IMG/VR virus record: IMGVR_UViG_3300028829_005735
Coordinates: 8,241-72,240 of that record
Strand: one strand, 5' to 3'
DNA: 64,000 nt
Source of the DNA: a virus
A program made the translations under genes and the position numbers. Below, piece after piece: positions 3,941-44,727 of this stretch. The notes beneath the pieces are model-generated. The model saw nothing but the letters and a program-made list of their open reading frames with translations. It was not told the origin of the DNA and searched no databases. Position 1 is the first letter of the stretch, and each line of letters starts with the position of its first letter.

Positions 3941-3941
3941 T

Positions 3942-5544: not shown

Positions 5545-5560
5545 AAAAAAATAAAAAATA

Positions 5561-6055
5561 ATGGCAGTCGCAGAAAAGAAACCAACAAAAAAGACATCCA
5601 AAAAAAAATCGGATGCACCAAAAGTAGATAAGGAGGCTACTCAAAGAAACGTACAAGCAGCTCAAACGATTAACACATTACCTCGAATAGGAAACATCCT
5701 ATTGGTGACAAGTGTGCACAAGTCAAACGACAACAAGATTATACCAAGTTTTTGTGGTATACCGATGGATGATAAGTGTCCATTTGTTGAGCTTATGTTC
5801 GATCCCGAAACAAAAACGTTAGGTGTTATCACCAAGCATAAAAAACCAATGTTCCAATTAGTTCCTAAGATTGACAATTTAGGGCAAGCAAAAAGGAATA
5901 CAGGTCGTAATTCGGATCAGCTTCCTTACCACCAAGAACGTCATATCATGGATACATACCATGAACAATACATTAGAACTCCAGAAGAAATCGATGCATT
6001 CTTAAAGATGTATGCAATAAACGACGACTTCAATTGGAATCAGTTTTTAGTGTAA
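5561..6055 (+). CDS. hypothetical protein (replication module)
   Basis: 164-aa ORF with A-rich start context, its own promoter and terminator. Confidence 0.75.
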   Translation: MAVAEKKPTKKTSKKKSDAPKVDKEATQRNVQAAQTINTLPRIGNILLVTSVHKSNDNKIIPSFCGIPMDDKCPFVELMFDPETKTLGVITKHKKPMFQLVPKIDNLGQAKRNTGRNSDQLPYHQERHIMDTYHEQYIRTPEEIDAFLKMYAINDDFNWNQFLV

Positions 6056-19130: not shown

Positions 19131-22100
19131 TTACCTCATACGTTTACCAGCTTCAAATCGTTCCTCGGCTCCTGTAGGGTTAAGCATCTTATTGTTGAAT
19201 CCATGGAATCTAAACATCCATCTAAAATAATTACCACCTATATCACCAAAGGGGCTTTCATATTTGTAATCAGGTTGTTCAAAGAAATATGGACCACCTA
19301 CTTGAGAAGGTGATGTTGGAGACTCACCCGACATCATATCTATAAGGCTGGTTCCGTAATCAAATACTTGACTTAAAGCAATACTTTGAGAAGTAGTTTG
19401 ACCAATAACATCTTTAACTCCTGACCAACTTCCTAGCCAATTAACAGAGTTATACTCATCGTTTAATTTAGCAGTAACCATACTTAAATGATTCAGCATA
19501 AATCCTTTAAAGTGAAAGTCATGATAATCTTGGTCTGCGTATAGCCCCAATCCTTCTTGTGTTTCTGGATCACCGTCTTGGTCGTAAGCACCAAACAGCC
19601 CTTCATCATACCATCCAGAACGATCGTGCATTGCCATAAAATCTGTCTTTTCTATCCCGTCATCGTCTGTAAAATGAGGAGTTAATAACCTCCACAAAGA
19701 CTTTAATAAGTATCCTATTAGAAGCTGAAAGGCTACATATCCCATCCCTTTTAATTCAGATTTACTTAGGTACATTAATGAGTTTTGTCCTTTAGCAGCA
19801 GATGCAAAAAAGTCACGTAATACCATAGCAGTACCAACCCAATGTCCCCACTCGGCTTCTCCTGTTGACCAATTCATACGTTTTCTCATAGAAGGTAACC
19901 AGCTATGTCTACTCATTCCTAATCCAAATGAAAACTGTTTCGAAGCAATTGGAATAACGTGCTTCTTTAGGAATAGTAATTGTTTTGCTATAACCCATCG
20001 TCCTACTAATGCCTGGTCTTTTTTGGCAAAGGCACCGTTCCACTTCATAATAACATTTTGCATATGTAATTTTTGCTCGGTAAACCCTTCACCCAAGGAC
20101 GGATTACCATCTTTGTCGTATGTAACGGCATAATTTTCTTCAACACCTTCTTTAGTTTGAATACGACCATCAACTAATTCAAATGCTTTAATGTATGGAA
20201 TCTCTTTAGTGTTACCTGCACTATCTGTAATTTTAACTTTCTTTTCATACATCATTCCACCAAAATTCTGAAGAGCTCCTTGCATTTCTAACCACTTCCT
20301 TACCTTTTGAGGATTTTTATTATCTAAAACATCTCCTATATAAGTACGAGATAGTTGATCACCCATTGTTTCCATTGCTCTACCAGAAATAGCATCGAAT
20401 AATGTGAATATTTGCTCATCCAAAGACTTATGACCTTTTCTACGGATATCACGGCTTACCTTGAATGCAGTTTGTGTTGCCCATTTTTCACCAAGTACAT
20501 AATTTTTATACGACATTTCTTGTCCAGCAAGAACATGAGTGAGAGATGTAATTTTCATTTGCCCAAAGTTGATAACACCTGACGATAAGTTCCAATTGAA
20601 ATTCATTTTAGAAGAACGTTTTACCATAGAGTCTAAAGCTCTATGCACCAAACGAGCTTGAGAACCAGTTCCTGTTAATGTGATACCGTCTAAGTCACGT
20701 TCTATTAAAGCTTCAAGAATTTTATCTCTTTTGCTTCTACCTTCTTTCCTTTTATGCTTTACATAACTCTCGTCTAAATTATCATAATTAGAATCTTGTT
20801 TACGATTGCTTTTTTGTTGAGTAATGAAGTTACGTTTATCAATTTCAACTTTTCCAACTTCATCCTGCATCATTCTAGCATAGCTGTTTGCTTCTTTCAA
20901 TCCTTTTTTATGGTTTAATGAAGCAATGTATTCAGGAATGGTTTTAAGAAAATCTGTAGATACGTCATCGATATGCATACGTTCTCCTCTTGCGTTTTCA
21001 GAAACACCAATTACTGGCATTTTAACACCAGTGTTTATTAATGAATAAGACTTAAGATGCTCCGAATCTTGTTTCAATTCATCTCTAGTTTCATCATTTC
21101 CTTTGTAATCAAACACATCATCTTCGGCTCCCATGAATGCTTCACGAGTACGTCTTGTAAACTTCATTACGTTTCCTGTAACAACATTTTCAAGCCTAGT
21201 CTTTCTGGTTCTAGGAAAAGTCAACCACATCTTATCATTATTCTCACCAACTTCCTGACCTTTTATATATTCACGTTTTACATTTTCCATGAATTCAAAA
21301 GTCTTTGGGTCATTTTCTTTAAGTTGATAATACTTTTCATTTCTATAAGTATTACCCGGTTCTTCTTTAGGTAGCCACTTACCTCTATTATCTACTGTTT
21401 CACCAATTACTTTTTTGGTTTCATACTTTTCTTTTACAACACGAGTAAAAAATTCTGCTGAAGGAATTCTATATTGGTCATCAATTTTAATAAGATCTAA
21501 TTTTTTACGATTGCCATCCTTGTCTTTTGGAGACATTAATCGTTTAGTACGATAATCATATGGGTTTTTAGACATATTGACCAACCATAATTTTGTAGGA
21601 GTAAGTACCCCATCTTTCTCATAATGGTTTTGCTCAACAAACTTTTTAAAATTATCATCGGTTTTAACGGCCTCTTGACCTTGAGCACTCTGAACAAATG
21701 CAGTAAAATCATTATTGTATGCCTCCTCCATAGAGGTAAACTCATGCCCTTGGTTTTCAATAAATTCTTGAAATAAGGTTCTTAGTTTTGGAGTATTTAA
21801 TAATGTAATTATAGTATTCTTATAGTAATCCGTAGGAATATTATCTTGACTTAGGATAGCATCTATTTCCGACAATCTTGCTAGTGTAACCGAATTTAAT
21901 CCAAGACGTTCTGAAGTTTCTGTTTTTTCTTTAACCAGTTTGTTATACTCTTGTTCATTAGAATTGTCTTTCCATACTCCACCATCGTCATTATAAATTT
22001 GTCGTAGTTCGTCAAAACGAGCTTTGTTAGCTTTGCTAAGACCACTACGCGTGATCATGTCCTGACGTTTCTTTTCAACTTCAATATGAGCATCTAATAC

Positions 22101-24887
22101 AGCTTTTCTAGATTTGGCAGTTGCTTCATTACCATCTGGCTGATTACCATTATCTTTTACTTGATTTGACTGCTCGTTAATTAATGTTTGTTCCTGAGTG
22201 TCATCGAATATTTTTTTGTTTTCTTCATTAAGTAACTTAAGAAGTTCTTCCTTTTCGGCAATTAACTTTTCTCGTTGTGTATAAACAGAGTTTTTAAGAA
22301 CAGTTCTTGTATTACGATCCAACCACTCTGCCATTTTTTCATTATAAGCAGGCTCTCCCATCTTAGAACCATTAGCTATAACGTATTCACTATACTCATC
22401 GTAGGCATCTTGAAAAGCACCTGGTATTTCATCTTCTATAAAATATTCAGCCCGTGCTTGAGTATACTCTTGAAGTCGTTCTGCAACTGCCAAATCCATT
22501 CCTGTCTTTTTATTTCCGAATAAATCAGTAGTTGAACGAAGTTGCTTTAAGTCATGTTTAAGACCATCTATAATTTCATTATGCCTTCCGTCAGAATTAT
22601 CTTCTTGAAGCTTATTCATTTCATCAAATATAGCTTCTCTACGTTCACCAGCTTCATATCCTATATCATCCTTCATAAGAAGATCGTTGGCAGCATAATA
22701 ACCGGCATCGAAATCCTGATTCATATAGACATTTTTCCATTTCTGATAATCATGTTTAGCTTCTTTCCAGAGCTTTTTACTAGCATCTGTCCCATCGGCA
22801 TCAAATGCCTTTTTAGCTTCTTCGATTTTATGTTTATGAACCGTCTGGTCATATCTATAATTTTTCCAAGGATTAAGGAATACAATTTCTTCACGTTCTA
22901 CAATAGCTCCATTCTCAATAGTAGCTATCCTATCTCTAAAAGATTGCTTTAAACCTATACCTCCTCTTTTTTGACCAGAAAAAATATGTATGTTCGGACT
23001 AACGACCGTAATAAAATTAGCCATCCAGGACTGAGCATTTGTTTCGTACATGTTAGTCATCATCTGAATGTGCTTATAAACACTTTCGATAGCTGGATCG
23101 GTATTATTAGATAAAGATTCTAAAAATCCATTAGACCAATTGGCATCTTGTGCAGAGCCATCTAGTATAGCATCGGCTTTAGATTCGTCAAACTCCAATC
23201 CGGTTAACCATAGTTCGTGAAGCCTATTATAATCATCAGATTTAATTCCTTTAGCTTTAAGTTCTTTATATTGTTTGTATTCAGCCTCAGTCATTGAATG
23301 AAAACGCTTGTATGCGGCATCCCTAATCTTTTGAGGAGCCCCTTTCTTAGGACCATCCATTTCAGCATTAAATTTATCCAAAGCATCTTTTGCCATCGGA
23401 GCAGTTAACTCAACAAAAATATCACGAACGGATTCTTTTTGAATCCTAGCAATTTCATTTTGCATTTCTGTCAAGTTATTTTTTAAATCTTGAGATAATT
23501 TACTAACTGGATTTCTAATAGGTTCTCCTTGGGCATCTAACTTTAATTTACCATCTTCTATTACATAAGCCTCTTCCCTAGAGCCTATTCTATTGAAATC
23601 ATTAATTACCTCTTGATAATTAAGCATATGACGTTTAAAGTAAATAAGCCTATCAAGTTTTTCACGACTGTTTAATTTATCAATAGCTTTTACTTTTTTA
23701 TTTCCTTCTGTAAGAATATCATTTACTTTATATAAGGCATGCATCATGTTGCCCATTCGTTCATGGATCACATCATTCAACTCTGTAAAAGTACCGTCAT
23801 CTTTTTTTGAAAAGTATTCAATGATTTCATTTTTAGATAAGGATGGATTTTTTTCTTTAAGAGCTTCGATTTCTTGCATATACCGGAACTCCAATTCGTC
23901 TGCAAAAATACCATTCAAACTAAGCATTATATCTCCTGCCTTCTCACTATTTAGTATATCGGCTTTTTGTTCTGCTACAGCAGAGAATATTTTACCCATA
24001 GTACCAAACATAATACCCATCTCCTTTTTATTGTTAGGGGAAATAGTATCAAAACTTTCAATAAACTTTTCTTTATCTTTGAAATATTCAATTACATCTG
24101 AACTTGTAATCATTTCCTTTTGGAGTTCCAGAACATCCCCCTTTGCAACCATCTCTGCGAGTCCTTTAAGGGTAGTGTCAGCTTGTAGTTTTCCAACATT
24201 CACTTTTCTACCAAGTAGCTTCCTTAATATTTGCTTGATTTGGTACATTAATTTATCAAACCAATTTTTAAGTTTTGGAGATAACTCCTCCATTTCAACC
24301 AATCTTGTAAGAGCACGTACTAAAACTTCTTCTTGTATCGATTCTGGAGCATCTTGATACATTTCATTTACATCATCTATAATATCTTGAAAGCTTCCGT
24401 CAGCTAGTAACTCATTGTATAGTTTATCACGTATTTCTTTTGGTAAAGATTTTATTATAGGGTGTGAGAATTCATGTACTACAGATTCGGGAGTAAGTTT
24501 TCCTTCTATAAAATATACTATACCATCTGCAAAGAATGCATTTTCTCCTGAATATTTTTTTTGTTTATCGGCATGAATTTTTTCTGCAACTTCTTCAGTA
24601 ATTACTTGAGCTTCAACATTCATAGATTTTGATAATTGGAACAACCAATTTTCTGCAGTTCTGTTATCAAAACTTTTTGCTTCATCTTTAAACGTATCTC
24701 TTTGAGAATTAAATTCATAATACTTATCGTTTGTTTCGTCATTAATTAAATCTAATTTATAACGAATTGCTCTTGGAGAACGAAGTACTCCGTATTGCAA
24801 AAAGTCTCTGTTTATTTCGAATAAATTAATATCAAGATCTGTATAATCTTTTAATTCTTCTTGAGAAATATTTAAACAACTGCTCAT
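19131..24887 (-). CDS. giant virion cargo/ejection protein with N-terminal zincin-like domain
   Basis: 1918 aa, helical; HEFSH (24462-24476) followed by EEVLVRA; hydrophobic segment near the C-terminus; sits downstream of the vRNAP as in crAss-like phages. Confidence 0.75.
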   Translation of the reverse strand: MSSCLNISQEELKDYTDLDINLFEINRDFLQYGVLRSPRAIRYKLDLINDETNDKYYEFNSQRDTFKDEAKSFDNRTAENWLFQLSKSMNVEAQVITEEVAEKIHADKQKKYSGENAFFADGIVYFIEGKLTPESVVHEFSHPIIKSLPKEIRDKLYNELLADGSFQDIIDDVNEMYQDAPESIQEEVLVRALTRLVEMEELSPKLKNWFDKLMYQIKQILRKLLGRKVNVGKLQADTTLKGLAEMVAKGDVLELQKEMITSSDVIEYFKDKEKFIESFDTISPNNKKEMGIMFGTMGKIFSAVAEQKADILNSEKAGDIMLSLNGIFADELEFRYMQEIEALKEKNPSLSKNEIIEYFSKKDDGTFTELNDVIHERMGNMMHALYKVNDILTEGNKKVKAIDKLNSREKLDRLIYFKRHMLNYQEVINDFNRIGSREEAYVIEDGKLKLDAQGEPIRNPVSKLSQDLKNNLTEMQNEIARIQKESVRDIFVELTAPMAKDALDKFNAEMDGPKKGAPQKIRDAAYKRFHSMTEAEYKQYKELKAKGIKSDDYNRLHELWLTGLEFDESKADAILDGSAQDANWSNGFLESLSNNTDPAIESVYKHIQMMTNMYETNAQSWMANFITVVSPNIHIFSGQKRGGIGLKQSFRDRIATIENGAIVEREEIVFLNPWKNYRYDQTVHKHKIEEAKKAFDADGTDASKKLWKEAKHDYQKWKNVYMNQDFDAGYYAANDLLMKDDIGYEAGERREAIFDEMNKLQEDNSDGRHNEIIDGLKHDLKQLRSTTDLFGNKKTGMDLAVAERLQEYTQARAEYFIEDEIPGAFQDAYDEYSEYVIANGSKMGEPAYNEKMAEWLDRNTRTVLKNSVYTQREKLIAEKEELLKLLNEENKKIFDDTQEQTLINEQSNQVKDNGNQPDGNEATAKSRKAVLDAHIEVEKKRQDMITRSGLSKANKARFDELRQIYNDDGGVWKDNSNEQEYNKLVKEKTETSERLGLNSVTLARLSEIDAILSQDNIPTDYYKNTIITLLNTPKLRTLFQEFIENQGHEFTSMEEAYNNDFTAFVQSAQGQEAVKTDDNFKKFVEQNHYEKDGVLTPTKLWLVNMSKNPYDYRTKRLMSPKDKDGNRKKLDLIKIDDQYRIPSAEFFTRVVKEKYETKKVIGETVDNRGKWLPKEEPGNTYRNEKYYQLKENDPKTFEFMENVKREYIKGQEVGENNDKMWLTFPRTRKTRLENVVTGNVMKFTRRTREAFMGAEDDVFDYKGNDETRDELKQDSEHLKSYSLINTGVKMPVIGVSENARGERMHIDDVSTDFLKTIPEYIASLNHKKGLKEANSYARMMQDEVGKVEIDKRNFITQQKSNRKQDSNYDNLDESYVKHKRKEGRSKRDKILEALIERDLDGITLTGTGSQARLVHRALDSMVKRSSKMNFNWNLSSGVINFGQMKITSLTHVLAGQEMSYKNYVLGEKWATQTAFKVSRDIRRKGHKSLDEQIFTLFDAISGRAMETMGDQLSRTYIGDVLDNKNPQKVRKWLEMQGALQNFGGMMYEKKVKITDSAGNTKEIPYIKAFELVDGRIQTKEGVEENYAVTYDKDGNPSLGEGFTEQKLHMQNVIMKWNGAFAKKDQALVGRWVIAKQLLFLKKHVIPIASKQFSFGLGMSRHSWLPSMRKRMNWSTGEAEWGHWVGTAMVLRDFFASAAKGQNSLMYLSKSELKGMGYVAFQLLIGYLLKSLWRLLTPHFTDDDGIEKTDFMAMHDRSGWYDEGLFGAYDQDGDPETQEGLGLYADQDYHDFHFKGFMLNHLSMVTAKLNDEYNSVNWLGSWSGVKDVIGQTTSQSIALSQVFDYGTSLIDMMSGESPTSPSQVGGPYFFEQPDYKYESPFGDIGGNYFRWMFRFHGFNNKMLNPTGAEERFEAGKRMR

Positions 24888-24889
24888 AT

Positions 24890-25861: not shown

Positions 25862-25865
25862 TTGA

Positions 25866-34800: not shown

Positions 34801-36368
34801 GTCGTTACCGTTCCGTTTTTAATAGATATTTCTACAAAGTTTTTGTTATTATATGAGAATTTAGGTTTGTAAATTCTATATAATTGTCCCTTGCTATCTT
34901 GATATAGCATTGCAGATGTGTTATTTGGATCTGCTAGGTTAGTTGTTATTATTCTATTTTCAGAATTATCTTTTACCGGCTTAGTTGCTTGGAAAGTATT
35001 AAAGAAGTTTTCAACTTGTTTTGCGTTTACTTTCTTTTTATAAATAGTAACCTCTCCATTAGCCGAAACTCTAATAGGTGACCTTTCGTTTACTGCTAAA
35101 TAGTTTGACACCAAATTTCTTATTTCATTAGCATTTAATTTAGAGCCGTTCTCATTAACTAAATTCTTATTTGTCAATAGTTCAACTAATGTTTTTACGA
35201 CTTCTGGATTCGATGAAATATCATTTGGTATTATTGCAGCTTTTGACTCGTGTAAGTCACCTCCCGTTAACACATGAAATGTACCATCATTTTTTTCATC
35301 CGTAGATAGAGTAAGGTTATCTATATTAGATAGCGTTGAGAGTTGAGTTTTATTCTTTGTAGTTTCGTTGTATCCAAATGTAGAACTAGCAGGATTTATT
35401 TCTAATAACATAGATCCTTGTTCACGAATAGCTTTAAATAAGCTTCTCCCATCCTCGGCATTCTCCATTAGGATTTCATAAATTTCATCCTGGGTGAAAT
35501 CATCTCTTAACATAGATGCCTCAAAAGCTGCAAACTTCTTCTTTAATGTATCACTTACTTTTTCTTTTTTACCATGTGTATAATTAAAGTATCCATCTTT
35601 AACCACACTTGGAGATTGAGTTGAGATTACTGGTATGCGACCACTTTCAGTAACAGCTCCGTTAGAGTCGAATTGAACCGGGTTACCATTTTTATCAGCA
35701 ATAATAAAAACAATCATGTTTTTTGCAGTAGTCTGATTCTTAGGCCTAGATGCTATAGAGAAATCTAACTCTCCTTTTACTTTAGATTCCAATTCACTAT
35801 AAGGCATAGCAAGTATTTGAAAATCTTTAGAACCATTTTTTACTTTATCTAAAACAGTTCTTTTAGCAGCATACGCAGGAGCTTTATCTGTATCTACATC
35901 ATTCTCAATACTCATTGTTTCAGAACCTTGAGTAGTTTCAAATTTTATATGAACAGCTTCATTTGGATCGTAGTCCTCCGTCTCGGCCTCCGTAATAACT
36001 TCTTCGATTTCTTCTTCAACAATATCGATGGGGGTACTCACCGATGTTTGAATTTTTTTTACAAGCGATTCTAATTTTGTAGGATCATTCAAGGCAGACA
36101 TACTTTCCAACATGTCTGCACCTATTTGGTCTTGTAAGGTTGGAATAGTATTATTTAAAGCCATTGGAGCAAGAGCCAAGTGTTGGAGTATAACCTCGTG
36201 ATTATCCATCGATTCTGTATCTCCAGATAATGCCAATGCTTCATTATACAAAGCTTTGTATAAGTCTCCAGCGTCATTGTAATTATTATTTTTTTGAAGC
36301 TCTAGTGCTTTTGATTTAAAAAAAGCATTGAAATCCTTAACGGATTGTTCTGATATACAAATCTTCAT
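25866..36368 (-). CDS. virion-packaged single-chain (two-barrel) RNA polymerase polyprotein
   Basis: 3500 aa; PRIPSQ...VPSEIVAKAGSDFDVDKL catalytic motif (30018-30032), DGQGF, KSGSK, VDVAKD blocks as in Cellulophaga phage phi14:2 gp66-type RNAPs; zincin HEAWH (34425-34439). Confidence 0.9.
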   Translation of the reverse strand: MKICISEQSVKDFNAFFKSKALELQKNNNYNDAGDLYKALYNEALALSGDTESMDNHEVILQHLALAPMALNNTIPTLQDQIGADMLESMSALNDPTKLESLVKKIQTSVSTPIDIVEEEIEEVITEAETEDYDPNEAVHIKFETTQGSETMSIENDVDTDKAPAYAAKRTVLDKVKNGSKDFQILAMPYSELESKVKGELDFSIASRPKNQTTAKNMIVFIIADKNGNPVQFDSNGAVTESGRIPVISTQSPSVVKDGYFNYTHGKKEKVSDTLKKKFAAFEASMLRDDFTQDEIYEILMENAEDGRSLFKAIREQGSMLLEINPASSTFGYNETTKNKTQLSTLSNIDNLTLSTDEKNDGTFHVLTGGDLHESKAAIIPNDISSNPEVVKTLVELLTNKNLVNENGSKLNANEIRNLVSNYLAVNERSPIRVSANGEVTIYKKKVNAKQVENFFNTFQATKPVKDNSENRIITTNLADPNNTSAMLYQDSKGQLYRIYKPKFSYNNKNFVEISIKNGTVTTNPIENKEHVVKTGSTKSFVNKAGVLKVYHPKLGYTLNPASYDNQPGLNKIKEQKGENAEVTLLEEQHALSWFKGSPLNDIIELENERLDSKDRPKSRVAVARWVENGIILYKGSDLTDIYHEAWHAYTQGILSPADKVKLYDSVRKLKGKSNHSYKQIEEFLAEEFRAYAIGKSKVKKTSVIGKFFQRIMDFLDKMFGKHSKSDLSKNSVVQDIVTENFKNLYTGNIDVTQYSSENFMFETLNKNINFPNASKGVANRLSAQQTSLLMGTVDSLVSTYLDQHNDEKLSKGYASVESLKAAYNGALHELIKLRNEQEKLRDASNPLSEEFEAHSKNFEMLDAAVDNFGDVEKMSNNIFAGEDPTNVIGFHLRNGKVYNYNTISDIIQQDDQQAEEDVTGKLFDRGGNDQSLFDMADEHIVYMLSTIHRQKTVRGKYTLQEARKLGNLRLKGKLKFGQETERNTLGVPVLERSVVVMAKLGKLLNSTPNGDMMYQKMQEAKSKDKVIAQVLEKLGPYKSDSLDQTLLWSKFIQTFSKSNNKLQQLIMETEIDNEGNLIVKSKYGTTLGGTKPVSRAWESSFPAMPSEYLISTPGGIELNAQGILNDFLVETSEGKWKLKKKDDYVNFYRSLGINITDTAEIEKALATKYDVLNAIATRLKNHVKVNAHNAEIGQNLNKINSLRSLFGAHESLNFDETDTQNESGLNSYYNTIQKVEFELSDKFNSFMSVNAPGDTQSELSLNSTASIVTNDINAIPEGMSLQDAITKFPHLKFLDPANDPMIRANRYHKLLFDKNGLRTDVKLTLNNFSGSTLLQEDNFIGLTNMDLDVNSKFMTDVYLSFFNKSEVTRMADKSTSLHMGIDFKQVFGTAEILEALKNPKDTTMFNELKDYLVAEIVRVNIIADIQNKGGMLDKGYRERGGKLFIFDDIFNSNTKKELLSLTDSTDFDTVAKALSTLKTSDLVEQVNEYFTEKTDYMMENFATELFITDSVMDTILRELPEELAETADEDTIREIMIGMFQRNKFLHNLDFTTLHLGDPALFDVEKEDFNKRNAGYISTGDIFRTDQAFMDFINSKDENGQIKARGWSNKVTGGKSEHKDYDGRINTGVIADHKAISEYLDEIQEALPGVDLKSYKEMEEGDGQGFIGFDSYRLLSIAQGIWTTEQEVQYNYIVDRATDENGNIIPGKYDQTEFTEFFPSMKLQSFGPLDTDAPLRQQANHKFNLVPLIPGMIKGTKLESLSQKMMEQGLDYVTFKSGSKLSTLSKNESGSDQYYNKDRSLNEDLVFEKNVIFAKYLKNQLKIHNKYKGKVTLPTQMRSILVSDLKDKDGNYLSKEHEQWHKDYLKNLNEIRKYKEQELYNELGIKDVKSLIQDSSKLVNMIRREFTSKDYTERQIEFLFDGGNLKSDLSTALTADQVEKLLVSLIDKRLTKIKVNGEGLIQVASTMSEKKGTTQIKGDKNSGTNGLRSYHNKDGKTVGMQVKISLQGNFEKLLYINGKDGKRIAKYTTRKNADGTTTKELDYELSLERLNETIKDENWLNENRDALRAVAPRIPSQAMNSLEFMEVAEFLPKNSGNIMIVPSEIVAKAGSDFDVDKLFTMFPNIDIYDGKVELVKYTTINTDVQGVKNKIKETTKKLKKTNDELSDLYTDLTETKELIQIGKKLESLYTEREDLANNTDALSKLRAEHVEKEIEALVEEQANYYEEVDGEFEDAADNDMLTQEKREIWNKINPLKEKQNSYQNEINDYKREISGASVKGLENELIDLIARRLSMETVYPELVKPNTNDMVEPLAKELSEFATDYKKYDRVNGTQTYNKNNEKQISPTQIFDPMYNINKQLENAVGMDTLGVGAIGSKFASIFQSIDMYLNPTNGLTHTEFDKLVSDRDNEVRELSPSEHKSVDEHIDYRIQLDHNTRMEEVNGKVQKVIDLSKTENVSGERVSDLLGQLINGWVDVAKDAWIFNIQGNKEVVPTLEFLLMAGVDFRQAVMLSSSKLVREYIQTKRKMNSAFYGLSELDQTNSETFDLIQFHNDIDALNEVLVNNGQEELNNIEQVYGESRNFSNPLEIKKNGTIEKLIKNMGKERNAHEKDQELQALLQFVSYEQTAKQITNLTMATKFDTATSASLAEVRNMQEKFDTLHENKALPENIKDRMLKDSPIGMFNTNELQLELWGQFFSLKTHKVISKTANEGIKGRFQKGRTKVENEKDFSEEFISYLYQNESTRIENNVYRGYTIFELENPGENEEYRVEDGKFFFSKPFVEGRVAGWPLGNSNSVKKFYIEKYIAEKDLDLDKVKDTLSYKMAEKAVALDPTKDLKDEYSDAEAIIKSGNSEQLFEGDHTYSKRLQELKEKFPTLAGQFTLVNDLTPDTSKYHRENLYLINQKEEGYKDIYEENLAILKEHPQPEIKEFFRMFDRFAVLQSGVKSYGKYVMTGVIDQNHVDKIVSPIKNDILSHFNALENDTESSYPLLQDFQTQFYKGEASHFKLFLMSKNRGAQFESDAYFGNTFRELDMRPLSLNSYPGKIPVMDMEMANASDKVIIHKVGNFPVKNYKEYSKINKYFSFINTNYTNALTEEYSKDEPVWVTGETMNDFATGGKNNEAAYQKTLERTFESYKTSINDAIEQGAEVFNVGMNSGIDSMTRKFLKKEKGLKEHKIVTKNGVYMQYSKANEVTPERLYSTIGGEANVNDRFTTPMKDLKVNLSIGTKPYTNIFHYLAAKKSLLSDKNTRLILKEKIEKNGTKYTEADWVNLISGIKLGADKSKYNEIDTILKTLIQVAETNPKFKSELEKSGKSLLTLGTGRSAFEKNFGRALLEARAEYNGPVTSMENISIELPSYKIDTGLSNKDGSKRFASTNGTTIKINPVKNVKELFDYMEGKEGGATSQQKQEVLKEMEKQGYGMSKIKELLTTPERADIFLILHEQDHIDNNDKDVYWAQGKDLMTEDKIAIEARASVNALMKIEIDNYTGEDPITCKT

Positions 36369-39300
36369 TACTTACATATTTTAAAGTGTTCTCTCATTTC
36401 CTCTTCTGTTGGGGTGTTTTCTGAGGACATCAATACTCCATTCGTAAAGTTACTTAATACTTTAGATAAATCTACGATGTTTTGTTTTTCTAGTTCCGAA
36501 ACAAGACCTTTACTTTCTTTGTTGAAATCATTTATGATACGACCTGTACCTCCATTAAATTGAGCCTTGGTCATAGAGGTTCTATTTTGAATGATGCTAT
36601 TGTAGTTGACAAGTTCTACTTTTGTTTTCATTAATTTGTCAACCTTCATTAAGCTTCCATCTTTCATTTCAACTATGTCTCCGGGTTTAAGATTAGAGAA
36701 TCCTTTTAAATCGGCTAATGAATTTTTAATTTTTTCAATTTCTGTATTAATTGTTGGAGTATGTCTTTCAAATAACTCTTGATTTTCTAAAGAAATTTTT
36801 GCTAATAATTTAGTCAAATCCTCCTGACTTCTTAGGTTTGTATCGTTAGTTTTAAATATTGCCTTAACCTCTTTAACTTCTGTAGCCTTTATTCGTTTTA
36901 ATCCGGCAACATATTCACGTTTTGTTTTACCCTGCTTTATAATACTAGCAATAGCCTCTGGTTTAAAACCAGCAATATCTTCGGGTGTATACCGTAACCC
37001 AATCATCTTGTCATATTGTGATTTCTCAAATTCTTTTTTGTTTTTTTCTACATCGGGATTGTTGTAATCAAATATTTTTTGATTTGCTAATTCCTTAGAG
37101 GTATCCAAAACATTTTTATCAAATTGAGGATCTCGTGCTAATATTTCGTAGACGTCTTGAATTACTTCTTCGGTAATAGTATGACCATCCACTTTGTTCC
37201 CTATATTGTTCAGAATAACATCTTGGATAGCATTAACCCTATTAAAGTAATCTGTTGAATCAACTTCACCAGGAGATTGCTTTTCAGCAAAAGCAATTAA
37301 TTCAATAGCTCTTTGTTCACGAACATCTACATTTTCATCTCTTTCACGAACATCTACATCAAATGATTTACCATCACCCACAACATCTGGAATCTGTTCA
37401 GCTTGTTGCTTTTCAAATTTTTCTTGTAGATCTTTTAGAGCTGCGTCTCGACGGCTATCAAGTTTTTTATCATACTCTATTCCTTCCACCTTACCTGCGA
37501 AATCATGTGTATTTTTTTGAGTATCAAAATCTTTATTGATTTCTTCAACTTGAGCATCATATTCCTCTTGAGTCATAGGAACTTCCTCTTCTTCAACTTG
37601 AGTTTCGGAAACTTCTGTTTTGTTCTCAAGAATTGCATCAATATCCTCACGAGAAAGATTATTAATATCTTCTTCGGTGTAATCTAACTCTTGAAGCTCT
37701 GCTTTCTCAGCATCGGATAATACTTCAAAAGTATCTGGAATTGGAGCAAGGTCTTCATTGTGTTCCTGAATAATTCGTTCTGCATCAGCAGAGTCATCAA
37801 CCCAAGACCTAAACCTATCGGTTAAGTTGTCAGAAGAAAGGTCTTCAATATTTTTATCAACTCTGTCTTCGTTAGCAACTTGATCGCGATATTCATTAAT
37901 TAAATCATTAATAACTGCTGGAGGATAAGAATCAATGGAATCTCCTTCTTTAATTGTTACATTATCAGCTTCTGTACGTTGATAATCTCGTCTATCTGCT
38001 CCTCCACCGACTTCTCCAGCCATTTCTTCAGCACGCGCGGAATCTACCTCTCCATCTAAAGTTTCGGGAGCATCAGTCTTTTCTTTTGCACTAGGTTCTT
38101 TTAGATTTTCAGTCGGCTTATCGAGAATTTTATCATACATTTTCTCAACAATTGAAACGGCAAGCTCATGCTTTTCGTTTGGTACACTCGTACCATCCTT
38201 TTGGGTAGTTTTCCTAGGGATTTGATTTCCGGTTTCTAAATCGTAAAAAACAGGTGGTTGCTCACCCTTCTCAATTATATCATCTAAATGCATTAAGTGG
38301 AAACCTAATCCATTTTCATAAAGTTCATTAAGTCCTTTTGAAACGACCTCTTTGTTACGGCTCATTTTTAATGAGTTCTCAACATACCTTTTAAATTGAG
38401 CCATAAAGACTTCGTGCATCTCAACCTTTCGATTGACAAATTCATCCATTGACTTCTCATTCATAAGAACATTAATAAGAAAGTCTAAGTCAGCATTTCG
38501 ATTATCTAACTTATATGAATCTAAAAGTGACTCAAAAGATTTATTAGAAAGATTTTCAAATGCAATCCCTTTTACTTTAGGAGCAATGGTTTTTAAGTAT
38601 GCATTGTGTTCTTTATGCATATCTTTCTCAACTTTCTCTTGCTCTTTCTCGAGTTTCTTTAGTTCGTTTTCTTCTGTAGAAGTGAGTTCAACATCAGAAC
38701 CTTTATAAGCTGAGATAGCATCTGAAAGTTCTGCAAATCTTTCAGTACTGTTATTGAATTCAGTAAGCGCTGCTAAACGAGCTTCTTTAGTTTTAAGAAG
38801 CTTTTTTGTTTTTTGATCTGCTTCCGAATATTCGATGGCTTGGATTTCAGATTCTAATAAATCTATTTCATTTGAAACAGTTTCCGGATGAAATAATTTT
38901 TCGTAATCTGAAAAAAGAATATCACCAGCCGTATTATCTTTAAGCTCGGACCTCATGCCTTCGAGCATTTTCTTTTTACGTTCTATATTTTCATTTACTT
39001 CAGATGTAGAAAATATTAATTCTTGTTTAGCTCTTTCAAAATATGCATGGTATTGCCTAGCAGCATTATATTTTGGATCATTTTTATCAATCTTACTTAA
39101 GTCAATTGGATTTGTAATATTTTTATTTACAGATTCGTATACCTCTTCAAACTGCTCGGCTTTTGCAATTTGATTATCTATAATTTTATTACGTTGTTGC
39201 TGAGTAGTTTTTGTACCCACCGTTTTAAATGCCTCACCAAACTGTTCAGCATCCATTGTTTTCATTTCTTGAAGATGACTTTTGAATTGATCCATCATTC

Positions 39301-41089
39301 CATATTGCATAGCAACTGCTAAGTGATTACGATAGGATTTAGCTTTTGCATTTTGAAATTCAAATTGATCACCTCTACGAGAAGCCTCAAACATCTCCAT
39401 TTCCATCTCGGCTTGAACGGCCAGATTGTTACCTTTATCCTTGAATACATCAGGACTATTCTCATATAATTCACTTAAAATTTTAACATCTGATTCAAGA
39501 CGGGTTCGTTCTGAAGTTTTAGAAGCTTTATATGTAGTATTGTCTGTGAAATATTTATAACCTCCACCTCTCGTTAATTGAGTACCAGCTTTAACTGTAA
39601 AGTTTACAGGAGAAACAACACCTCCCATAAAAAATCCAGACAAAAATGTTTCAAATCCTTGTCCTGATATTTGCTCTTTAATACCATGTAGCATACCATC
39701 AAACCAATCACCATGAGCTTCGGACCCATATTGGTGCATGTTTTTTGCATTAATCATTTCTTGAAGGTTCTCTTGAAATCCCTCACCAATGTTTGCAGTA
39801 AAATATGTGCCTCCTTTACTCCCAATATTTTTACCAATACGTTTTACACCAGTACCAAAACCATCAGCAAATAACATTTTGGTTCTTTGGGGAATGCCGA
39901 CAATACCTTTTCGGATAACTTTAGCATCACTCATTTTTCCAACAACATCGTAAAATCTATTAGAACGAAGAGTTTTTCCAAAGCCTTTTAAGTCATCAAA
40001 GGCTTTATACATATTGTTGAATACAAGTTTGTTTGTTGCTGATATAGCAACCATATTTTCCCACCATGCATACGTAGAAGCTGTTTTGGCCTGCTCTGCA
40101 TATTTTGCAGCATCTTCGTCTGTTAGAACTCCTTGGTGATTGCTTATTAAATCGTCATATACTTCATCTTCAAGCATTGAGCTTTCAAGTTTAGACTCTG
40201 TTGTGGCAAGGTGAATTGCTTTAACATCCCTAAACATAGAACCTGCTCCTAACATTAATTTACCACCTTCTGTAGTCTTTTTTAAGTCTTGAGCATTGTT
40301 TAATGTCTTAACAAAATTTGTGGTGTTTTCAAAAGGATTTAAGAGATTTAAAGCTCTTTCTCCTGTAGAAAGTTTCTTTGCTTTATTTACACCACGTATA
40401 GTTTTTTGTAAATCACTAGCCATACCCCAGGCATGCTTTAACCTACGAAATGATTGGTATCCTTTGGCTGCCATAGCAGGAGCCGTTAATTCGGAGGCAC
40501 CCCCTAAAGTTAAAGCTGTAATTCCTGCAAGAGCAACTTCTTCGATTACCATATCCGCAACGATACCTACGGTATATCCAGAATTCATTACTAGATTTTG
40601 CATAAACCCTTCGACACCTCCTCTTGTAGAGCTATACGTATCTGCAATTCTTGCGTATTCTTTATCTGAGTTATCTGAAGCCCACGTTTCAAATAAGGCA
40701 TTATCTGTAAATCCTATTTTTAAAAGCTTTCCTGCAGCTGTAAAACTACGATCCCATTGTTCACCACTTGTAAGATTGTCATTATACCATTTTGCATTAT
40801 CTATATACGGATTGTACCCATATTTATTGAACTTAGAATAAGTCTGAAGCTTTTCAAAGTTCTTGTCATATGCAGATGCATTAAAGTTTTTAATTGTTCC
40901 TGAAAATACTTTCTCTCTTTCAGTTAATGCATATGGATTCGGATCGTTGTCTTTACTTTCGTTTAACCGACGTAAATCTTCATCATAACCTTTTTGATCC
41001 TCTGAATCGATAGGGGTAGTATCAACAGGGATGGAATTTCTTCTTGCTAAATCCTCATCCAATAATCTTTGTTCTTCTGGTGAAATCAT
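36368..41089 (-). CDS. giant virion cargo/ejection protein
   Basis: 1573 aa; N-terminal Gly/Ala hydrophobic helices (EVALAGITALTLGGAS; EGFQENLQE; FLSGFFMGGVV) typical of membrane-inserting ejection proteins; acidic C-terminal half. Confidence 0.75.
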   Translation of the reverse strand: MISPEEQRLLDEDLARRNSIPVDTTPIDSEDQKGYDEDLRRLNESKDNDPNPYALTEREKVFSGTIKNFNASAYDKNFEKLQTYSKFNKYGYNPYIDNAKWYNDNLTSGEQWDRSFTAAGKLLKIGFTDNALFETWASDNSDKEYARIADTYSSTRGGVEGFMQNLVMNSGYTVGIVADMVIEEVALAGITALTLGGASELTAPAMAAKGYQSFRRLKHAWGMASDLQKTIRGVNKAKKLSTGERALNLLNPFENTTNFVKTLNNAQDLKKTTEGGKLMLGAGSMFRDVKAIHLATTESKLESSMLEDEVYDDLISNHQGVLTDEDAAKYAEQAKTASTYAWWENMVAISATNKLVFNNMYKAFDDLKGFGKTLRSNRFYDVVGKMSDAKVIRKGIVGIPQRTKMLFADGFGTGVKRIGKNIGSKGGTYFTANIGEGFQENLQEMINAKNMHQYGSEAHGDWFDGMLHGIKEQISGQGFETFLSGFFMGGVVSPVNFTVKAGTQLTRGGGYKYFTDNTTYKASKTSERTRLESDVKILSELYENSPDVFKDKGNNLAVQAEMEMEMFEASRRGDQFEFQNAKAKSYRNHLAVAMQYGMMDQFKSHLQEMKTMDAEQFGEAFKTVGTKTTQQQRNKIIDNQIAKAEQFEEVYESVNKNITNPIDLSKIDKNDPKYNAARQYHAYFERAKQELIFSTSEVNENIERKKKMLEGMRSELKDNTAGDILFSDYEKLFHPETVSNEIDLLESEIQAIEYSEADQKTKKLLKTKEARLAALTEFNNSTERFAELSDAISAYKGSDVELTSTEENELKKLEKEQEKVEKDMHKEHNAYLKTIAPKVKGIAFENLSNKSFESLLDSYKLDNRNADLDFLINVLMNEKSMDEFVNRKVEMHEVFMAQFKRYVENSLKMSRNKEVVSKGLNELYENGLGFHLMHLDDIIEKGEQPPVFYDLETGNQIPRKTTQKDGTSVPNEKHELAVSIVEKMYDKILDKPTENLKEPSAKEKTDAPETLDGEVDSARAEEMAGEVGGGADRRDYQRTEADNVTIKEGDSIDSYPPAVINDLINEYRDQVANEDRVDKNIEDLSSDNLTDRFRSWVDDSADAERIIQEHNEDLAPIPDTFEVLSDAEKAELQELDYTEEDINNLSREDIDAILENKTEVSETQVEEEEVPMTQEEYDAQVEEINKDFDTQKNTHDFAGKVEGIEYDKKLDSRRDAALKDLQEKFEKQQAEQIPDVVGDGKSFDVDVRERDENVDVREQRAIELIAFAEKQSPGEVDSTDYFNRVNAIQDVILNNIGNKVDGHTITEEVIQDVYEILARDPQFDKNVLDTSKELANQKIFDYNNPDVEKNKKEFEKSQYDKMIGLRYTPEDIAGFKPEAIASIIKQGKTKREYVAGLKRIKATEVKEVKAIFKTNDTNLRSQEDLTKLLAKISLENQELFERHTPTINTEIEKIKNSLADLKGFSNLKPGDIVEMKDGSLMKVDKLMKTKVELVNYNSIIQNRTSMTKAQFNGGTGRIINDFNKESKGLVSELEKQNIVDLSKVLSNFTNGVLMSSENTPTEEEMREHFKICK

Positions 41090-44678: not shown

Positions 44679-44693
44679 TGTTTACTGTTTTTT

Positions 44694-44701
44694 CAAAAAT
44701 A
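44694..44701 (-). promoter_or_regulatory. possible Bacteroidota -7 promoter element
   Basis: TATTTTTG (TAnnTTTG) on the - strand ~16 nt before ATG 44678; -33 element weak. Confidence 0.3.
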
Positions 44702-44727
44702 CTAATTTAATACTAAACATTTTTTAG

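What the first reader, a model, noticed from the sequence alone, without database searches (positions are those of the whole stretch)
19131..41089. Head-to-tail cysteine 'daisy chain' across the four giant ejected proteins, including the virion RNA polymerase
Seen in sequence (manual scan of the translations): the four consecutive cargo proteins total 7314 aa but contain only six Cys, all at gene junctions. The 1573-aa protein has one Cys, at the penultimate position (...FKICK*, codon 36374-36376). The 3500-aa vRNAP has Cys4 (MKIC, 36357-36359) and Cys3498 (...ITCKT*, 25875-25877) only. The 323-aa protein has Cys3 (MGCD, 25853-25855) and Cys322 (...NKCK*, 24896-24898) only. The 1918-aa protein has Cys4 only (MSSC, 24876-24878). 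The first protein lacks an N-terminal Cys and the last lacks a C-terminal Cys, exactly the pattern of a linear chain A-B-C-D in gene order. The genes are also tightly spaced (1-nt overlap, 4-nt and 2-nt gaps). Established: crAss-like phages package giant proteins including the RNAP and eject them through a narrow tail. Inference: C-terminal-to-N-terminal disulfides (or shared metal sites) link separately translated proteins into one ~800-kDa thread. This could fix stoichiometry and ejection order, let each protein pull the next through the tail, and release them on reduction in the host cytoplasm. I am not aware of this having been described.
Basis: partly seen in the sequence, partly recalled or inferred. 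Interest (0 to 1): 0.9.

Follow-up and report, generated by a model that had tools for sequence, protein, structure and literature searches.

The report
Cysteine-clasped chain of ejected phage proteins
Four giant proteins that this crAss-like phage carries in its particle, including its RNA polymerase, have no cysteine except one at each end that faces the next protein, a rule kept by nearly every relative examined, which suggests (still untested) that disulfide bonds string them into one thread for delivery into the host.

Summary
Proteins A (1573 aa), B (3500), C (323) and D (1918) hold six Cys in 7314 residues, at A1572, B4, B3498, C3, C322 and D4. About 136 would be expected from the window's other genes.

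B is the virion RNA polymerase homologue (DFDVD motif).

The rule is conserved. In 79 non-duplicate loci, 149 junctions carry Cys on both sides, against 0 of 77 control junctions, and only 33 interior Cys occur in 540,169 residues. First proteins lack a head Cys and last proteins lack a tail Cys.

Gene splits gain a pair; fused forms lack it. phi14:2, crAss001, DAC15 and Fpv1 obey it, in crAss001 and DAC15 across opposite strands. This excludes a DNA-level junction signal.

Cyanophage A-4L shows the same signature, and there cryo-EM saw the disulfide.

Head-to-tail disulfide linkage is the best reading, at about 0.65. The bond, the ejection role and release by reduction are untested. Six literature searches found no description for Crassvirales.

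This scan has already noted the same pattern on other genomes.

The parts
36368..41089 (-). Gene A, 1573 aa, first chain member (crAss001 gp47-type position). Its only Cys is 1572, the penultimate residue.
   Evidence: Of 23 homologues, 21 have a Cys in the last 7 residues and only 1 has a Cys near the N-terminus.
36374..36376 (-). Cys1572 codon (TGT) of A, the tail Cys of junction A/B.
25866..36368 (-). Gene B, 3500 aa, virion RNA polymerase homologue. Its only Cys are 4 and 3498.
   Evidence: Matches crAss001 gp50 'putative RNA polymerase' (E 4e-12) and the phi14:2 2180-aa protein (E 2e-16). All 36 listed homologues, the window's own protein included, have a Cys in the last 5 residues.
36357..36359 (-). 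Cys4 codon of B, the head Cys of junction A/B.
30018..30032 (-). DFDVD motif (B residues 2113-2117), the DxDxD catalytic motif of two-barrel RNA polymerases.
   Evidence: D2113, D2115 and D2117 are invariant in 23 aligned homologues. Translation checked. By BLAST offsets it aligns to the DFDID region at 1361-1365 of phi14:2 gp66 (motif position from bioRxiv 10.1101/2020.03.07.982082).
34425..34439 (-). HEAWH zincin-like motif (B residues 644-648).
   Evidence: H644, E645 and H648 are invariant. B 618-726 matches crAss001 gp47 2131-2236 (E 1e-5), so the A/B breakpoint lies elsewhere in that lineage.
25875..25877 (-). Cys3498 codon of B, the tail Cys of junction B/C.
   Evidence: Invariant column in alignment A1.
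24890..25861 (-). Gene C, 323 aa, a small middle link. Its only Cys are 3 and 322.
   Evidence: All 12 listed sequences (the window's own plus 11 orthologues at 41-79% identity) have exactly these two Cys. The model shows an alpha/beta domain at 1-222, a disordered stretch at 224-254 and a terminal helix at 312-322.
25853..25855 (-). Cys3 codon of C, the head Cys of junction B/C.
24896..24898 (-). Cys322 codon of C, the tail Cys of junction C/D.
19131..24887 (-). Gene D, 1918 aa, last chain member (crAss001 gp49 / phi14:2 1421-aa protein position). Its only Cys is 4.
   Evidence: Of 135 full-length homologues, 130 have a Cys in the first 8 residues and none has one in the last 8.
24876..24878 (-). 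Cys4 codon of D, the head Cys of junction C/D.
24462..24476 (-). HEFSH zincin-like motif (D residues 138-142).
   Evidence: H138, E139 and H142 are invariant in 13 aligned D heads. Translation checked.
41091..49778 (-). Context: three further Cys-poor proteins upstream of A. They are 1195 aa (Cys128 and Cys134 only), 673 aa (no Cys) and 1009 aa (no Cys), and are presumed to be other cargo proteins.
   Evidence: The Cys128/Cys134 pair recurs in relatives. There is only a weak match to crAss001 gp45 (E 0.003).

Best explanation
A, B (the virion RNA polymerase), C and D are particle-borne cargo proteins of a crAss-like phage. They have been purged of cysteine everywhere except one residue at each terminus that faces the next protein.

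The most likely working is as follows. In the assembled particle, the C-terminal Cys of each protein forms a disulfide with the N-terminal Cys of the next: A1572-B4, B3498-C3 and C322-D4. The separately translated proteins then behave as one co-linear, N-to-C, polyprotein-like thread of 7314 residues. This thread can be fed through the tail as a partly unfolded chain and is split into its parts by the reducing host cytoplasm.

Shown: the Cys pattern, its conservation and polarity, its tracking of gene breakpoints, and the RNA polymerase homology.

Inferred: the bond itself, when it forms (probably after assembly, once the termini are already docked), its role in ejection, and reductive release.
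For: (1) Pattern and odds in the window.

(2) Conservation of the terminal Cys:
- All 36 listed B homologues (22-100% identity, the window's own included) have a Cys in the last 5 residues and only 1-4 Cys in 2589-4869 aa. 25 of the 36 have a Cys at positions 3-7.
- In 79 non-duplicate loci (78 IMG/VR plus the window; 2 duplicates dropped) there are 149 junctions with Cys on both sides. The chain proteins hold 335 Cys in 540,169 residues, of which 33 are interior.
- Control: 0 of 77 other tightly spaced junctions in the same loci have Cys on both sides.

(3) Polarity, from independent libraries:
- A-type: 21 of 23 have a tail Cys and 1 of 23 has a head Cys.
- D-type: 130 of 135 have a head Cys and 0 of 135 have a tail Cys.
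- C: all 12 listed sequences have both.

(4) Fission and fusion:
- The L056 574-aa protein (Cys3, Cys572) is 47-48% identical to the N-terminal part of 2352-2742-aa proteins that have no Cys at that site.
- B is split into 602 + 2440 aa in L067, and A is split in L050 and L066. Each split carries a new pair.
- p-crAssphage gp44 and crAss002 gp33 fuse the polymerase and the following subunit, with no Cys in the estimated junction interval.

(5) The rule is not a DNA or RNA junction signal:
- In crAss001 and DAC15 the first protein is encoded on the opposite strand, away from the polymerase gene, yet it keeps its sole C-terminal Cys.
- Both TGT (249) and TGC (49) are used, and offsets vary.

(6) Precedent: A-4L gp27 (1717 aa, sole Cys1715) and gp26 (1114 aa, sole Cys5) form a disulfide in the cryo-EM structure (PMC12002296).

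(7) crAss001 virions contain other inter-subunit disulfides, and they contain gp47, gp49 and gp50 by mass spectrometry (PMC10172136).
Against: No experiment shows these Cys oxidised in any crass virion.

Gut crassviruses assemble in a reducing cytoplasm and live in an anoxic habitat, so the bond would have to form after assembly.

No thiol oxidase, thioredoxin or glutaredoxin domain was found among the 30 other window ORFs scanned with Pfam.

Exceptions exist:
- 2 of 23 A-type homologues have no Cys (P0058; and P0065, which sits on a 4.2-kb contig and may be cut).
- 3 of 135 D-type proteins have no head Cys, and 2 more have it at position 9.
- p-crAssphage gp47 has a sole Cys856 of 857 but the next protein, gp46, has none. 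Its gp44 also has 7 interior Cys.

Sequence alone cannot separate tail-to-next-head pairing from other pairings of the same Cys.

Heads of different positions share only the M-x-x-C motif, and tails share nothing detectable. No common docking module explains the specificity.
Confidence: 0.65

Rival explanations
1. The same Cys form disulfides, but with other partners. Options are head-to-tail closure within B and within C plus an A-D bond, homodimers (tail-tail, head-head), or bonds to portal, capsid or tail proteins.
For: Cys counts alone fit cyclisation plus an A-D bond. crAss001 uses many disulfides among tail and portal-vertex proteins, including a homodimer (PMC10172136). The complex prediction gave no answer either way.
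Against: Two-member chains allow no cyclisation: Fpv1 has 4401 aa with sole Cys4400 followed by 1596 aa with Cys3, and A-4L is the same. In A-4L the bond seen is tail to next head.

Homodimers or anchoring to other proteins give no reason for first proteins to lack a head Cys (1 of 23) or for last proteins to lack a tail Cys (0 of 135).

The junctions that bear pairs are the ones that are peptide-bonded in fused relatives.
Confidence: 0.1
2. The facing Cys are joined, or held, by a metal rather than a disulfide. One version is a cysteine switch in which a terminal Cys caps the zinc of the HExxH (zincin) domains of B and D and keeps them latent in the particle.
For: B and D carry invariant HExxH motifs. 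In crAss001 the region matching B's zincin motif lies in the C-terminal part of gp47, about 100-200 residues before its C-terminal Cys2339.
Against: 98 of 149 junctions have no HExxH within 250 residues on either side. A-type tails have none within 200 residues of the C-terminus.

There is one Cys per terminus, its offset varies (0-7 and 3-7), and no His or second Cys is conserved nearby.

The A-4L pair is a disulfide.
Confidence: 0.08
3. The terminal Cys are free in the particle and act only during or after ejection. For example they could be oxidised in the host periplasm to tie the proteins together as they assemble a conduit, or serve as redox sensors in the cytoplasm.
For: Interior Cys depletion of ejected proteins has been explained by passage through the periplasm, which holds disulfide-forming enzymes (PMC11445570). 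Gut crassviruses live in anoxic surroundings.
Against: N4-like ejected proteins lack Cys altogether, termini included, so periplasmic passage does not by itself call for terminal Cys. In A-4L the bond is present in the particle before ejection.
Confidence: 0.1
4. The Cys codons are a by-product of a nucleotide-level signal at tightly coupled gene junctions (for example for termination-reinitiation) and have no role in the proteins.
For: The genes abut (1-nt overlap, 4-nt and 2-nt gaps), and all six codons in the window are TGT.
Against: 0 of 77 other tight junctions in the same loci show the pattern.

crAss001 gp47 and DAC15 protein 61 keep the tail Cys although they are encoded on the other strand, away from the polymerase gene.

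TGC is used in 49 of 298 junction Cys codons. Offsets vary from 0-7 and 3-7 residues, and gaps from -17 to +30 nt.
Confidence: 0.01

Closest known systems
Cyanopodophage A4 (Anabaena phage A-4L) pre-ejectosome pair gp27-gp26, disulfide Cys1715-Cys5 (PNAS 2025, PMC12002296; passages read)
   Same: The products of two adjacent ejection-protein genes are involved. The upstream one has a single Cys three residues from its end (1715 of 1717). The downstream one has a single Cys at position 5. The C-terminal helix of one docks on the next and the two Cys are bonded in the particle. C here also ends in a predicted terminal helix carrying the Cys.
   Different: A4 has one link only, in a T7-like podophage (Saffermanviridae) that has no virion RNA polymerase. 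The paper does not generalise the finding. There is no detectable sequence similarity to A-D (best E 0.059). Here there are three links in series (up to four in relatives), with the RNA polymerase in the middle, and the rule runs through a whole phage order.
Crassvirales RNA-polymerase cargo cluster: phi14:2 gp67-gp66-gp65 (GenBank tags 078-077-076) and crAss001 gp47-gp50-gp49
   Same: B is homologous to gp66 and gp50 and has the DxDxD motif. Those proteins are in virions (PMC10172136; GenBank MS/MS notes). gp66 is delivered to the host and transcribes early genes (preprint abstract). The Cys rule is the same: phi14:2 has [1797] then [3, 2179] then [3]; crAss001 has [2339] then [5, 1334, 2404] then [5].
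   Different: This window has a fourth member, C, and a 3500-aa polymerase protein that includes the zincin region which crAss001 carries on gp47. Neither paper mentions these cysteines: 'cysteine' and 'disulfide' occur 0 times in the phi14:2 preprint, and the crAss001 paper discusses disulfides only for tail and portal-vertex proteins.
Cys-free ejection operon of Schitoviridae (N4 gp50-52, DEV gp71-73; PMC11445570, passages read)
   Same: A giant virion RNA polymerase is ejected together with partner proteins, and Cys is strongly suppressed in these proteins.
   Different: The N4-like proteins have essentially no Cys at all, termini included. Their polymerase is of a different kind from the DxDxD type here (the first statement is from the paper; the polymerase type is my recall). 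Here Cys is kept precisely at the facing termini.
Giant fused RNA-polymerase polyproteins of some crAss-like phages (p-crAssphage gp44, crAss002 gp33, Fpv1 4401-aa protein)
   Same: The same modules occur in the same order as one covalent chain, so covalent continuity at these junctions is tolerated.
   Different: In those phages the link is a peptide bond and no Cys pair sits at the junction. Here there are stop and start codons plus a Cys on each side.

Membership tests
Crassvirales virion RNA polymerase (phi14:2 gp66 / crAss001 gp50 type) | DxDxD (DFDxD) catalytic motif of a two-barrel RNA polymerase | tested here: met
   DFDVD is at B 2113-2117, and the three Asp are invariant in 23 homologues.
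Crassvirales virion RNA polymerase (phi14:2 gp66 / crAss001 gp50 type) | Sequence homology to the characterised proteins | tested here: met
   tblastn hits crAss001 'putative RNA polymerase' at 22% identity, E 4e-12. blastp hits the phi14:2 2180-aa protein at 24% over 458 aa, E 2e-16, and crAss001 gp50 at E 4e-16. phmmer against PDB sequences found nothing.
Crassvirales virion RNA polymerase (phi14:2 gp66 / crAss001 gp50 type) | Packaged in the virion and delivered to the host | not testable with these tools
   This is known only for homologues (PMC10172136; preprint abstract).
Crassvirales virion RNA polymerase (phi14:2 gp66 / crAss001 gp50 type) | Placed next to tail, muzzle and cargo genes of a crAss-like structural module | tested here: met
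   Upstream genes match PHROG virion structural and tail-fibre families. The order resembles crAss001 gp44-gp47.
A4-type ejection-protein disulfide clasp (gp27 Cys1715 - gp26 Cys5) | Sole Cys near the C-terminus of one protein, and sole or first Cys near the N-terminus of the protein encoded next | tested here: met
   Window. A-4L.
A4-type ejection-protein disulfide clasp (gp27 Cys1715 - gp26 Cys5) | The two Cys are physically bonded in the particle | not testable with these tools
   This needs gels, mass spectrometry or cryo-EM of virions.
A4-type ejection-protein disulfide clasp (gp27 Cys1715 - gp26 Cys5) | Sequence homology to gp27 or gp26 | tested here: not met
   The best blastp E-value is 0.059. 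The resemblance is one of working principle, not of family.
Schitoviridae-type Cys-free ejection proteins | Cys absent throughout, termini included | tested here: not met
   Six terminal Cys are kept here, and they are conserved.
Cysteine-switch zincin latency (MMP-like; recalled concept) | A zincin HExxH site partnered with each regulatory Cys | tested here: not met
   Only 51 of 149 junctions have an HExxH within 250 residues. A and C have none.
Single polyprotein | One open reading frame across the modules | tested here: not met
   There are four ORFs with stop and start codons at each junction.

The most novel reading that the evidence does not exclude
The terminal-Cys clasp is a general, evolvable coupling system, a redox-cleavable substitute for a peptide bond. 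It lets crassviruses assemble an ejection train from separately translated proteins, and lets any protein that acquires a head Cys and a tail Cys be plugged into the train and co-delivered with the RNA polymerase.

Unrelated middle links at the same position in different lineages fit this. This window's C (323 aa), L005 (209 aa), L036 (318 aa), L010 (754 aa) and L056 (574 aa) each have both terminal Cys. Three of them have no detectable relatives among the other chain proteins. The A-4L pair would then be an independent invention of the same trick.
Probability: 0.35. Interest if true: 0.9.

Novelty: new variant of a known kind. Interest (0 to 1): 0.8.

Why it matters
How crassviruses, the most abundant phages of the human gut, get several very large proteins including an RNA polymerase through a narrow tail is an open question. 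[quoted passage not shown]

A conserved chain of end-to-end clasps would give that order a concrete physical basis. It would explain why gene splits and fusions are freely tolerated in this cluster. It would also explain interior Cys depletion as the avoidance of wrong bonds.

The idea is directly testable with existing cultured phages and perhaps with mass-spectrometry data already collected. It would also offer a simple rule (one Cys at each end) for recognising cargo proteins in uncultured phage genomes.

Tried and rejected
- PHROGs and Pfam on A-D: no family above threshold.
- Megablast of B against the phage collection: no match.
- The search for related loci with C alone: no relatives in IMG/VR.
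I went on with the search for related loci using an alignment.
- phmmer of D and B against PDB sequences: no hits.
- Foldseek of the C model against PDB: no match at E <= 0.001.
- Complex prediction (B tail 3301-3500 + D head 1-300 + C as partner, each with an alignment): no verdict, scores 0.14 and 0.11, controls not run. I do not use it for or against binding.
- Shared docking modules: hhalign of 65 B heads against 71 D heads aligned only 8 columns around M-x-x-C, and A tails against B tails gave nothing. I rejected a common head or tail domain.
- Geometric coupling of the two offsets at a junction: Spearman rho -0.02. Rejected.
- Interior Cys of distant B homologues as remnants of junctions: they sit inside conserved core sequence, for example right after the catalytic motif. 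Rejected.
- Thiol-redox enzymes in the window: none among 30 ORFs scanned with Pfam. Some small ORFs were not scanned.
- Cysteine-switch idea: see rivals.
- Nucleotide-signal idea: see rivals.
- Homology of the upstream 1195-aa protein to crAss001 gp45: only E 0.003 over 94 residues. Left open.
Extended Data Tables 2 and 3 of PMC10172136 (the disulfide list and peptide coverage) may bear on whether the terminal peptides were seen.
- Papers: for all four papers I saw matched passages only, plus the abstract and outline of the phi14:2 preprint. I read none in full.

Full report
**Observation.** The four minus-strand ORFs are exactly as described: A 36368-41089 (1573 aa), B 25866-36368 (3500 aa), C 24890-25861 (323 aa) and D 19131-24887 (1918 aa).
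- Programmatic counting gives six Cys in 7314 residues, at A1572, B4, B3498, C3, C322 and D4.
- The junctions are a 1-nt overlap, a 4-nt gap and a 2-nt gap.
- 29 other ORFs of the window hold 180 Cys in 9671 residues (1.86%), so about 136 Cys would be expected. P(<=6) is about 7e-50.
- The chance that six random Cys fall one in each of the six facing 4-residue end windows is about 2e-17.
- The three proteins just upstream are also Cys-poor: 1195 aa with Cys128 and Cys134 only, 673 aa with none, and 1009 aa with none.

**What the proteins are.** PHROGs and Pfam give nothing above threshold for A-D, and megablast finds no close phage record.
- tblastn of B hits giant proteins of crAss-like phages. 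Its core (residues 1540-2130) matches the 'putative RNA polymerase' of crAss001 (E 4e-12) and the p-crAssphage 'RNAP catalytic subunit'.
- An alignment of 23 homologues has an invariant D2113-x-D2115-x-D2117 (DFDVD in the window) and an invariant HExxH at 644-648.
- blastp aligns B 2067-2521 to residues 1315-1656 of the 2180-aa phi14:2 protein (E 2e-16). That protein is gp66, which the phi14:2 preprint shows to be a virion-packaged RNA polymerase delivered to the host to transcribe early genes. Its DFDID motif is at 1361-1365 (abstract).
- Upstream genes match virion structural and tail-fibre PHROGs.
- So the window is a crAss-like phage and B is its virion RNA polymerase homologue. Packaging and ejection are inferred from homologues.

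**Conservation in B homologues.** 36 proteins were listed (22-100% identity, 2589-4869 aa, the window's own included). Each has only 1-4 Cys. All 36 have a Cys in the last 5 residues and 25 have one at positions 3-7. The 11 without are longer, N-terminally fused or N-terminally cut forms. Cys3498 is an invariant alignment column.

**Conservation in whole loci.** A scan of IMG/VR with the alignment found 361 relatives, of which the best 80 loci were kept (24-34% identity). After dropping 2 duplicates and adding the window there are 79 loci.
- The polymerase protein has a head Cys in 69 of 69 cases with a complete 5' end.
- It has a tail Cys in 70 of 72. The 2 misses, L048 and L060, are loci where B is cut by the contig end and my script took D as the longest ORF.
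- The upstream neighbour has a tail Cys in 67 of 68. The miss is L055, with its Cys at the tenth residue from the end (1825 of 1834), outside my 8-residue window.
- The downstream neighbour has a head Cys in 69 of 71. The misses are L048, the same artefact, and L074, a miscalled start with Cys at position 11.
- Walking the chains gives 149 junctions with Cys on both sides.
- Tail offsets are 0-7 residues (116 of 149 at 0-2). Head positions are 3-7 (127 of 149 at 3-4). Gaps run from -17 to +30 nt.
- Codon use is TGT 249 and TGC 49, and the two offsets are uncorrelated (rho -0.02).
- The chain proteins total 540,169 residues with 335 Cys, of which only 33 are interior.
- Of 43 chains complete at both ends, 34 have three members and 6 have four. 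The 3 that appear to have two members are artefacts: L054 (contig edge), L055 and L074.
- L005 and L036 have five members but are cut at one end.
- Control: among 77 other closely spaced same-strand junctions in these loci, none has Cys on both sides. Non-chain ORFs have 0.60% Cys.

**Polarity from independent libraries.**
- A-type: of 23 homologues, 21 have a Cys in the last 7 residues (20 of them as the only Cys). One (P0062) also has Cys8. Two have none: P0058, and P0065, which lies on a 4.2-kb contig.
- C: all 12 listed sequences, the window's own plus 11 orthologues at 41-79% identity, have exactly the two terminal Cys.
- D-type: of the best 150 of 371 hits in the 1.84-billion-protein representative library, 135 start with M and are at least 1700 aa long. 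Of these, 130 have a Cys in the first 8 residues, 2 have it at position 9 and 3 have none. None of the 135 has a Cys in the last 8 residues. Interior Cys number 67 in 287,748 residues.

**Splits and fusions.**
- L056 has a 574-aa link (Cys3, Cys572) followed by a 1934-aa protein with Cys4. The 574-aa protein is 47-48% identical over about 500-580 residues to the N-terminal part of single proteins of 2352-2742 aa in L012, L047, L048 and L051. Those have no Cys at the corresponding site.
- In L067 the polymerase protein is split into 602 aa (Cys3, Cys601) and 2440 aa (Cys4, Cys2438). The unsplit homologues have no Cys near residue 600.
- In L050 and L066 the A-type protein is split into about 1100 and about 1240 aa with a new pair. 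The second pieces match the C-terminal halves of unsplit A-type proteins that have only the terminal Cys.
- For this window's own C/D junction: C 1-102 is 44% identical to the first 103 residues of the 1983-aa post-polymerase protein of L077, and 33% identical to the first 83 residues of the phi14:2 1421-aa protein. C 127-235 matches residues 609-718 of the 2739-aa L048 protein. All these longer proteins have no Cys at the equivalent junction.
- p-crAssphage gp44 (4070 aa) and crAss002 gp33 (4245 aa) contain both the crAss001 gp50-like and the gp49-like parts. They have no Cys within the estimated junction intervals, about 2360-2600 and 2430-2780 by my extrapolation from BLAST offsets.
- B 618-726, the zincin region, matches crAss001 gp47 2131-2236 (E 1e-5). 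So the A/B break lies at a different place in that lineage, and the Cys pair lies at the break in both.

**Named phages.**

| Phage | Proteins in chain order, with Cys positions |
|---|---|
| phi14:2 | 1797 aa [1797]; 2180 aa [3, 2179]; 1421 aa [3] |
| crAss001 | gp47 2341 aa [2339]; gp50 2412 aa [5, 1334, 2404]; gp49 1349 aa [5] |
| DAC15 | protein 61 2222 aa [2220]; protein 63 2265 aa [5, 1269, 1293, 1672, 2265]; protein 62 1369 aa [4, 619] |
| Fpv1 | 4401 aa [4400]; 1596 aa [3, 1461] |
| crAss002 | gp32 2020 aa [2019]; gp33, see below |
| p-crAssphage | gp45 1957 aa [1396, 1425, 1956]; gp44 4070 aa [3 plus 7 interior] |

- All three phi14:2 proteins are annotated as virion proteins by MS/MS.
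- crAss001 gp47 and DAC15 protein 61 are encoded on the opposite strand from the polymerase gene.
- The annotated start of crAss002 gp33 puts the first Cys at position 35, but an in-frame Met-Ser-Cys lies at 33-35. The true start is probably Met33 (my inference).
- In p-crAssphage, gp47 (857 aa) has a sole Cys856 while the next protein, gp46, has none. This is an unmatched tail Cys that I cannot explain.

**Why a protein-level, pairwise link is the best reading.**
- The opposite-strand arrangement in crAss001 and DAC15, the variable offsets and gaps, the use of both Cys codons, and the clean control junctions rule out a nucleotide-level junction signal.
- The strict polarity, and the fact that pairs sit exactly where other lineages have a peptide bond, argue for tail(i)-to-head(i+1) coupling. 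They argue against generic anchoring or homodimers.
- Heads at different chain positions share only M-x(1-3)-C, and tails share nothing detectable at profile level. Aligned on the Cys, tails end in an amphipathic, acidic/hydrophobic stretch followed by [KN]-x-C-[K/end].
- The C model ends in a helix at 312-322 that carries Cys322 (low confidence there).

**Precedent and context from papers** (passages only).
- I checked the genome. gp27 is 1717 aa with Cys1715 as its only Cys, and gp26 is 1114 aa with Cys5 as its only Cys. This is the same signature. There is no detectable homology to A-D.
- The crAss001 atlas reports several inter-subunit disulfides in tail and portal-vertex proteins. It detects gp47, gp49 and gp50 in virions by mass spectrometry, places them in the capsid cargo zone without resolving them, and argues that they must partly unfold to pass the tail. 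It says nothing about their cysteines (PMC10172136).
- Cys suppression in the ejection proteins of N4-like phages is published, with the periplasm as the rationale. There Cys is absent altogether (PMC11445570).
- Searches for a description of the crass terminal-Cys chain found none. 'Cysteine' and 'disulfide' do not occur in the phi14:2 preprint.

**Rivals considered.**
- A cysteine-switch or metal bridge involving the invariant HExxH motifs of B and D fails as a general explanation, because 98 of 149 junctions have no HExxH within 250 residues.
- Other pairings of the same Cys cannot be excluded by sequence alone. They are disfavoured by two-member chains and by the polarity.
- A role only after ejection remains possible.
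- No thiol-redox enzyme was found among the 30 other window ORFs scanned. So if the bonds form, they probably form spontaneously between pre-docked termini after assembly. This is inference.

**Standing.** The scan has flagged and followed up the same pattern on other genomes. Those notes gave me the A4 paper and the names of phi14:2 and crAss001, both of which I checked here.
- The head-to-tail linkage is strongly suggested by comparative evidence and by one structural analogue.
- The chemistry and the ejection role remain untested.
- I rate it a new variant of a known kind. One such clasp is published, whereas a serial, polymerase-carrying chain conserved across Crassvirales is not.

Noticed in passing
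window 57071-61696 (minus strand): Six adjacent genes begin with Cys-rich N-termini. In five of them the first Cys is at position 4, with clusters such as 4, 8, 11, 13 and 4, 6, 11, 12. Several continue into collagen-like G-x-y repeats and match tail-fibre PHROGs or Pfam Collagen. In crAss001 the tail-fibre N-termini dock in hubs that are stabilised by disulfides (PMC10172136), so these may be disulfide-anchored fibres.
   Followed up: partly
window 41091-44678 (minus strand); also L019, L031, L035, L046, L049, L061, L072: The 1195-aa protein just upstream of A has only two Cys, at 128 and 134 (C-x5-C). The same pair at the same positions recurs in homologues of several distant loci. L034 and L037 homologues lack it. 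Its function is unknown, and there is only a weak match to crAss001 gp45 (E 0.003).
   Followed up: partly
window 44728-49778 (minus strand): Two further proteins, of 673 and 1009 aa, have no Cys at all and no family match. Together with the 1195-aa protein and A-D, this makes a block of 10,191 residues with 8 Cys.
   Followed up: partly
window 34425-34439 and 24462-24476: Both B (HEAWH, 644-648) and D (HEFSH, 138-142) carry invariant zincin-type HExxH motifs. B also has HEQWH at 1858 and HEQDH at 3445, which are not invariant. The region around the first B motif matches the C-terminal part of crAss001 gp47, so the gene break has moved between lineages.
   Followed up: partly
L005 19090-19719; the middle chain genes of L036, L010 and L056; window 24890-25861: The position between the polymerase protein and the last protein is occupied in different lineages by apparently unrelated proteins of 209, 318, 754, 574 and 323 aa, each with both terminal Cys. 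Three of them have no detectable relatives among the other chain proteins.
   Followed up: partly
L082 (Carjivirus communis) 766-5903: p-crAssphage gp47 (857 aa) has a single Cys at 856, but the next protein, gp46 (857 aa), has none. This is a tail Cys without a facing head Cys.
   Followed up: no
L085 (crAss002) 14602-14700: The annotated start of gp33 is probably 32 codons too far upstream. An in-frame Met-Ser-Cys at residues 33-35 would give the usual head Cys at position 3.
   Followed up: partly
proteins P0013, P0021, P0027: Some distant homologues of B carry precomputed Pfam hits for PIF1-like helicase or AAA_30 domains. P0013 and P0021 also carry a 2OG-Fe(II) oxygenase hit. These forms lack the head Cys at positions 3-4.
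   Followed up: no
window 1412-2644 and 14218-15078 (plus strand): One gene encodes a DUF2201 putative metallopeptidase with a VWA-like domain. Another encodes a spore-photoproduct-lyase-like radical SAM protein. Both are ordinary accessory genes of the replication arm.
   Followed up: no
window 24890-25861: The AlphaFold model of C (mean pLDDT 75.5) has a confident alpha/beta domain at 1-222 with no Foldseek match in the PDB at E <= 0.001.
   Followed up: partly
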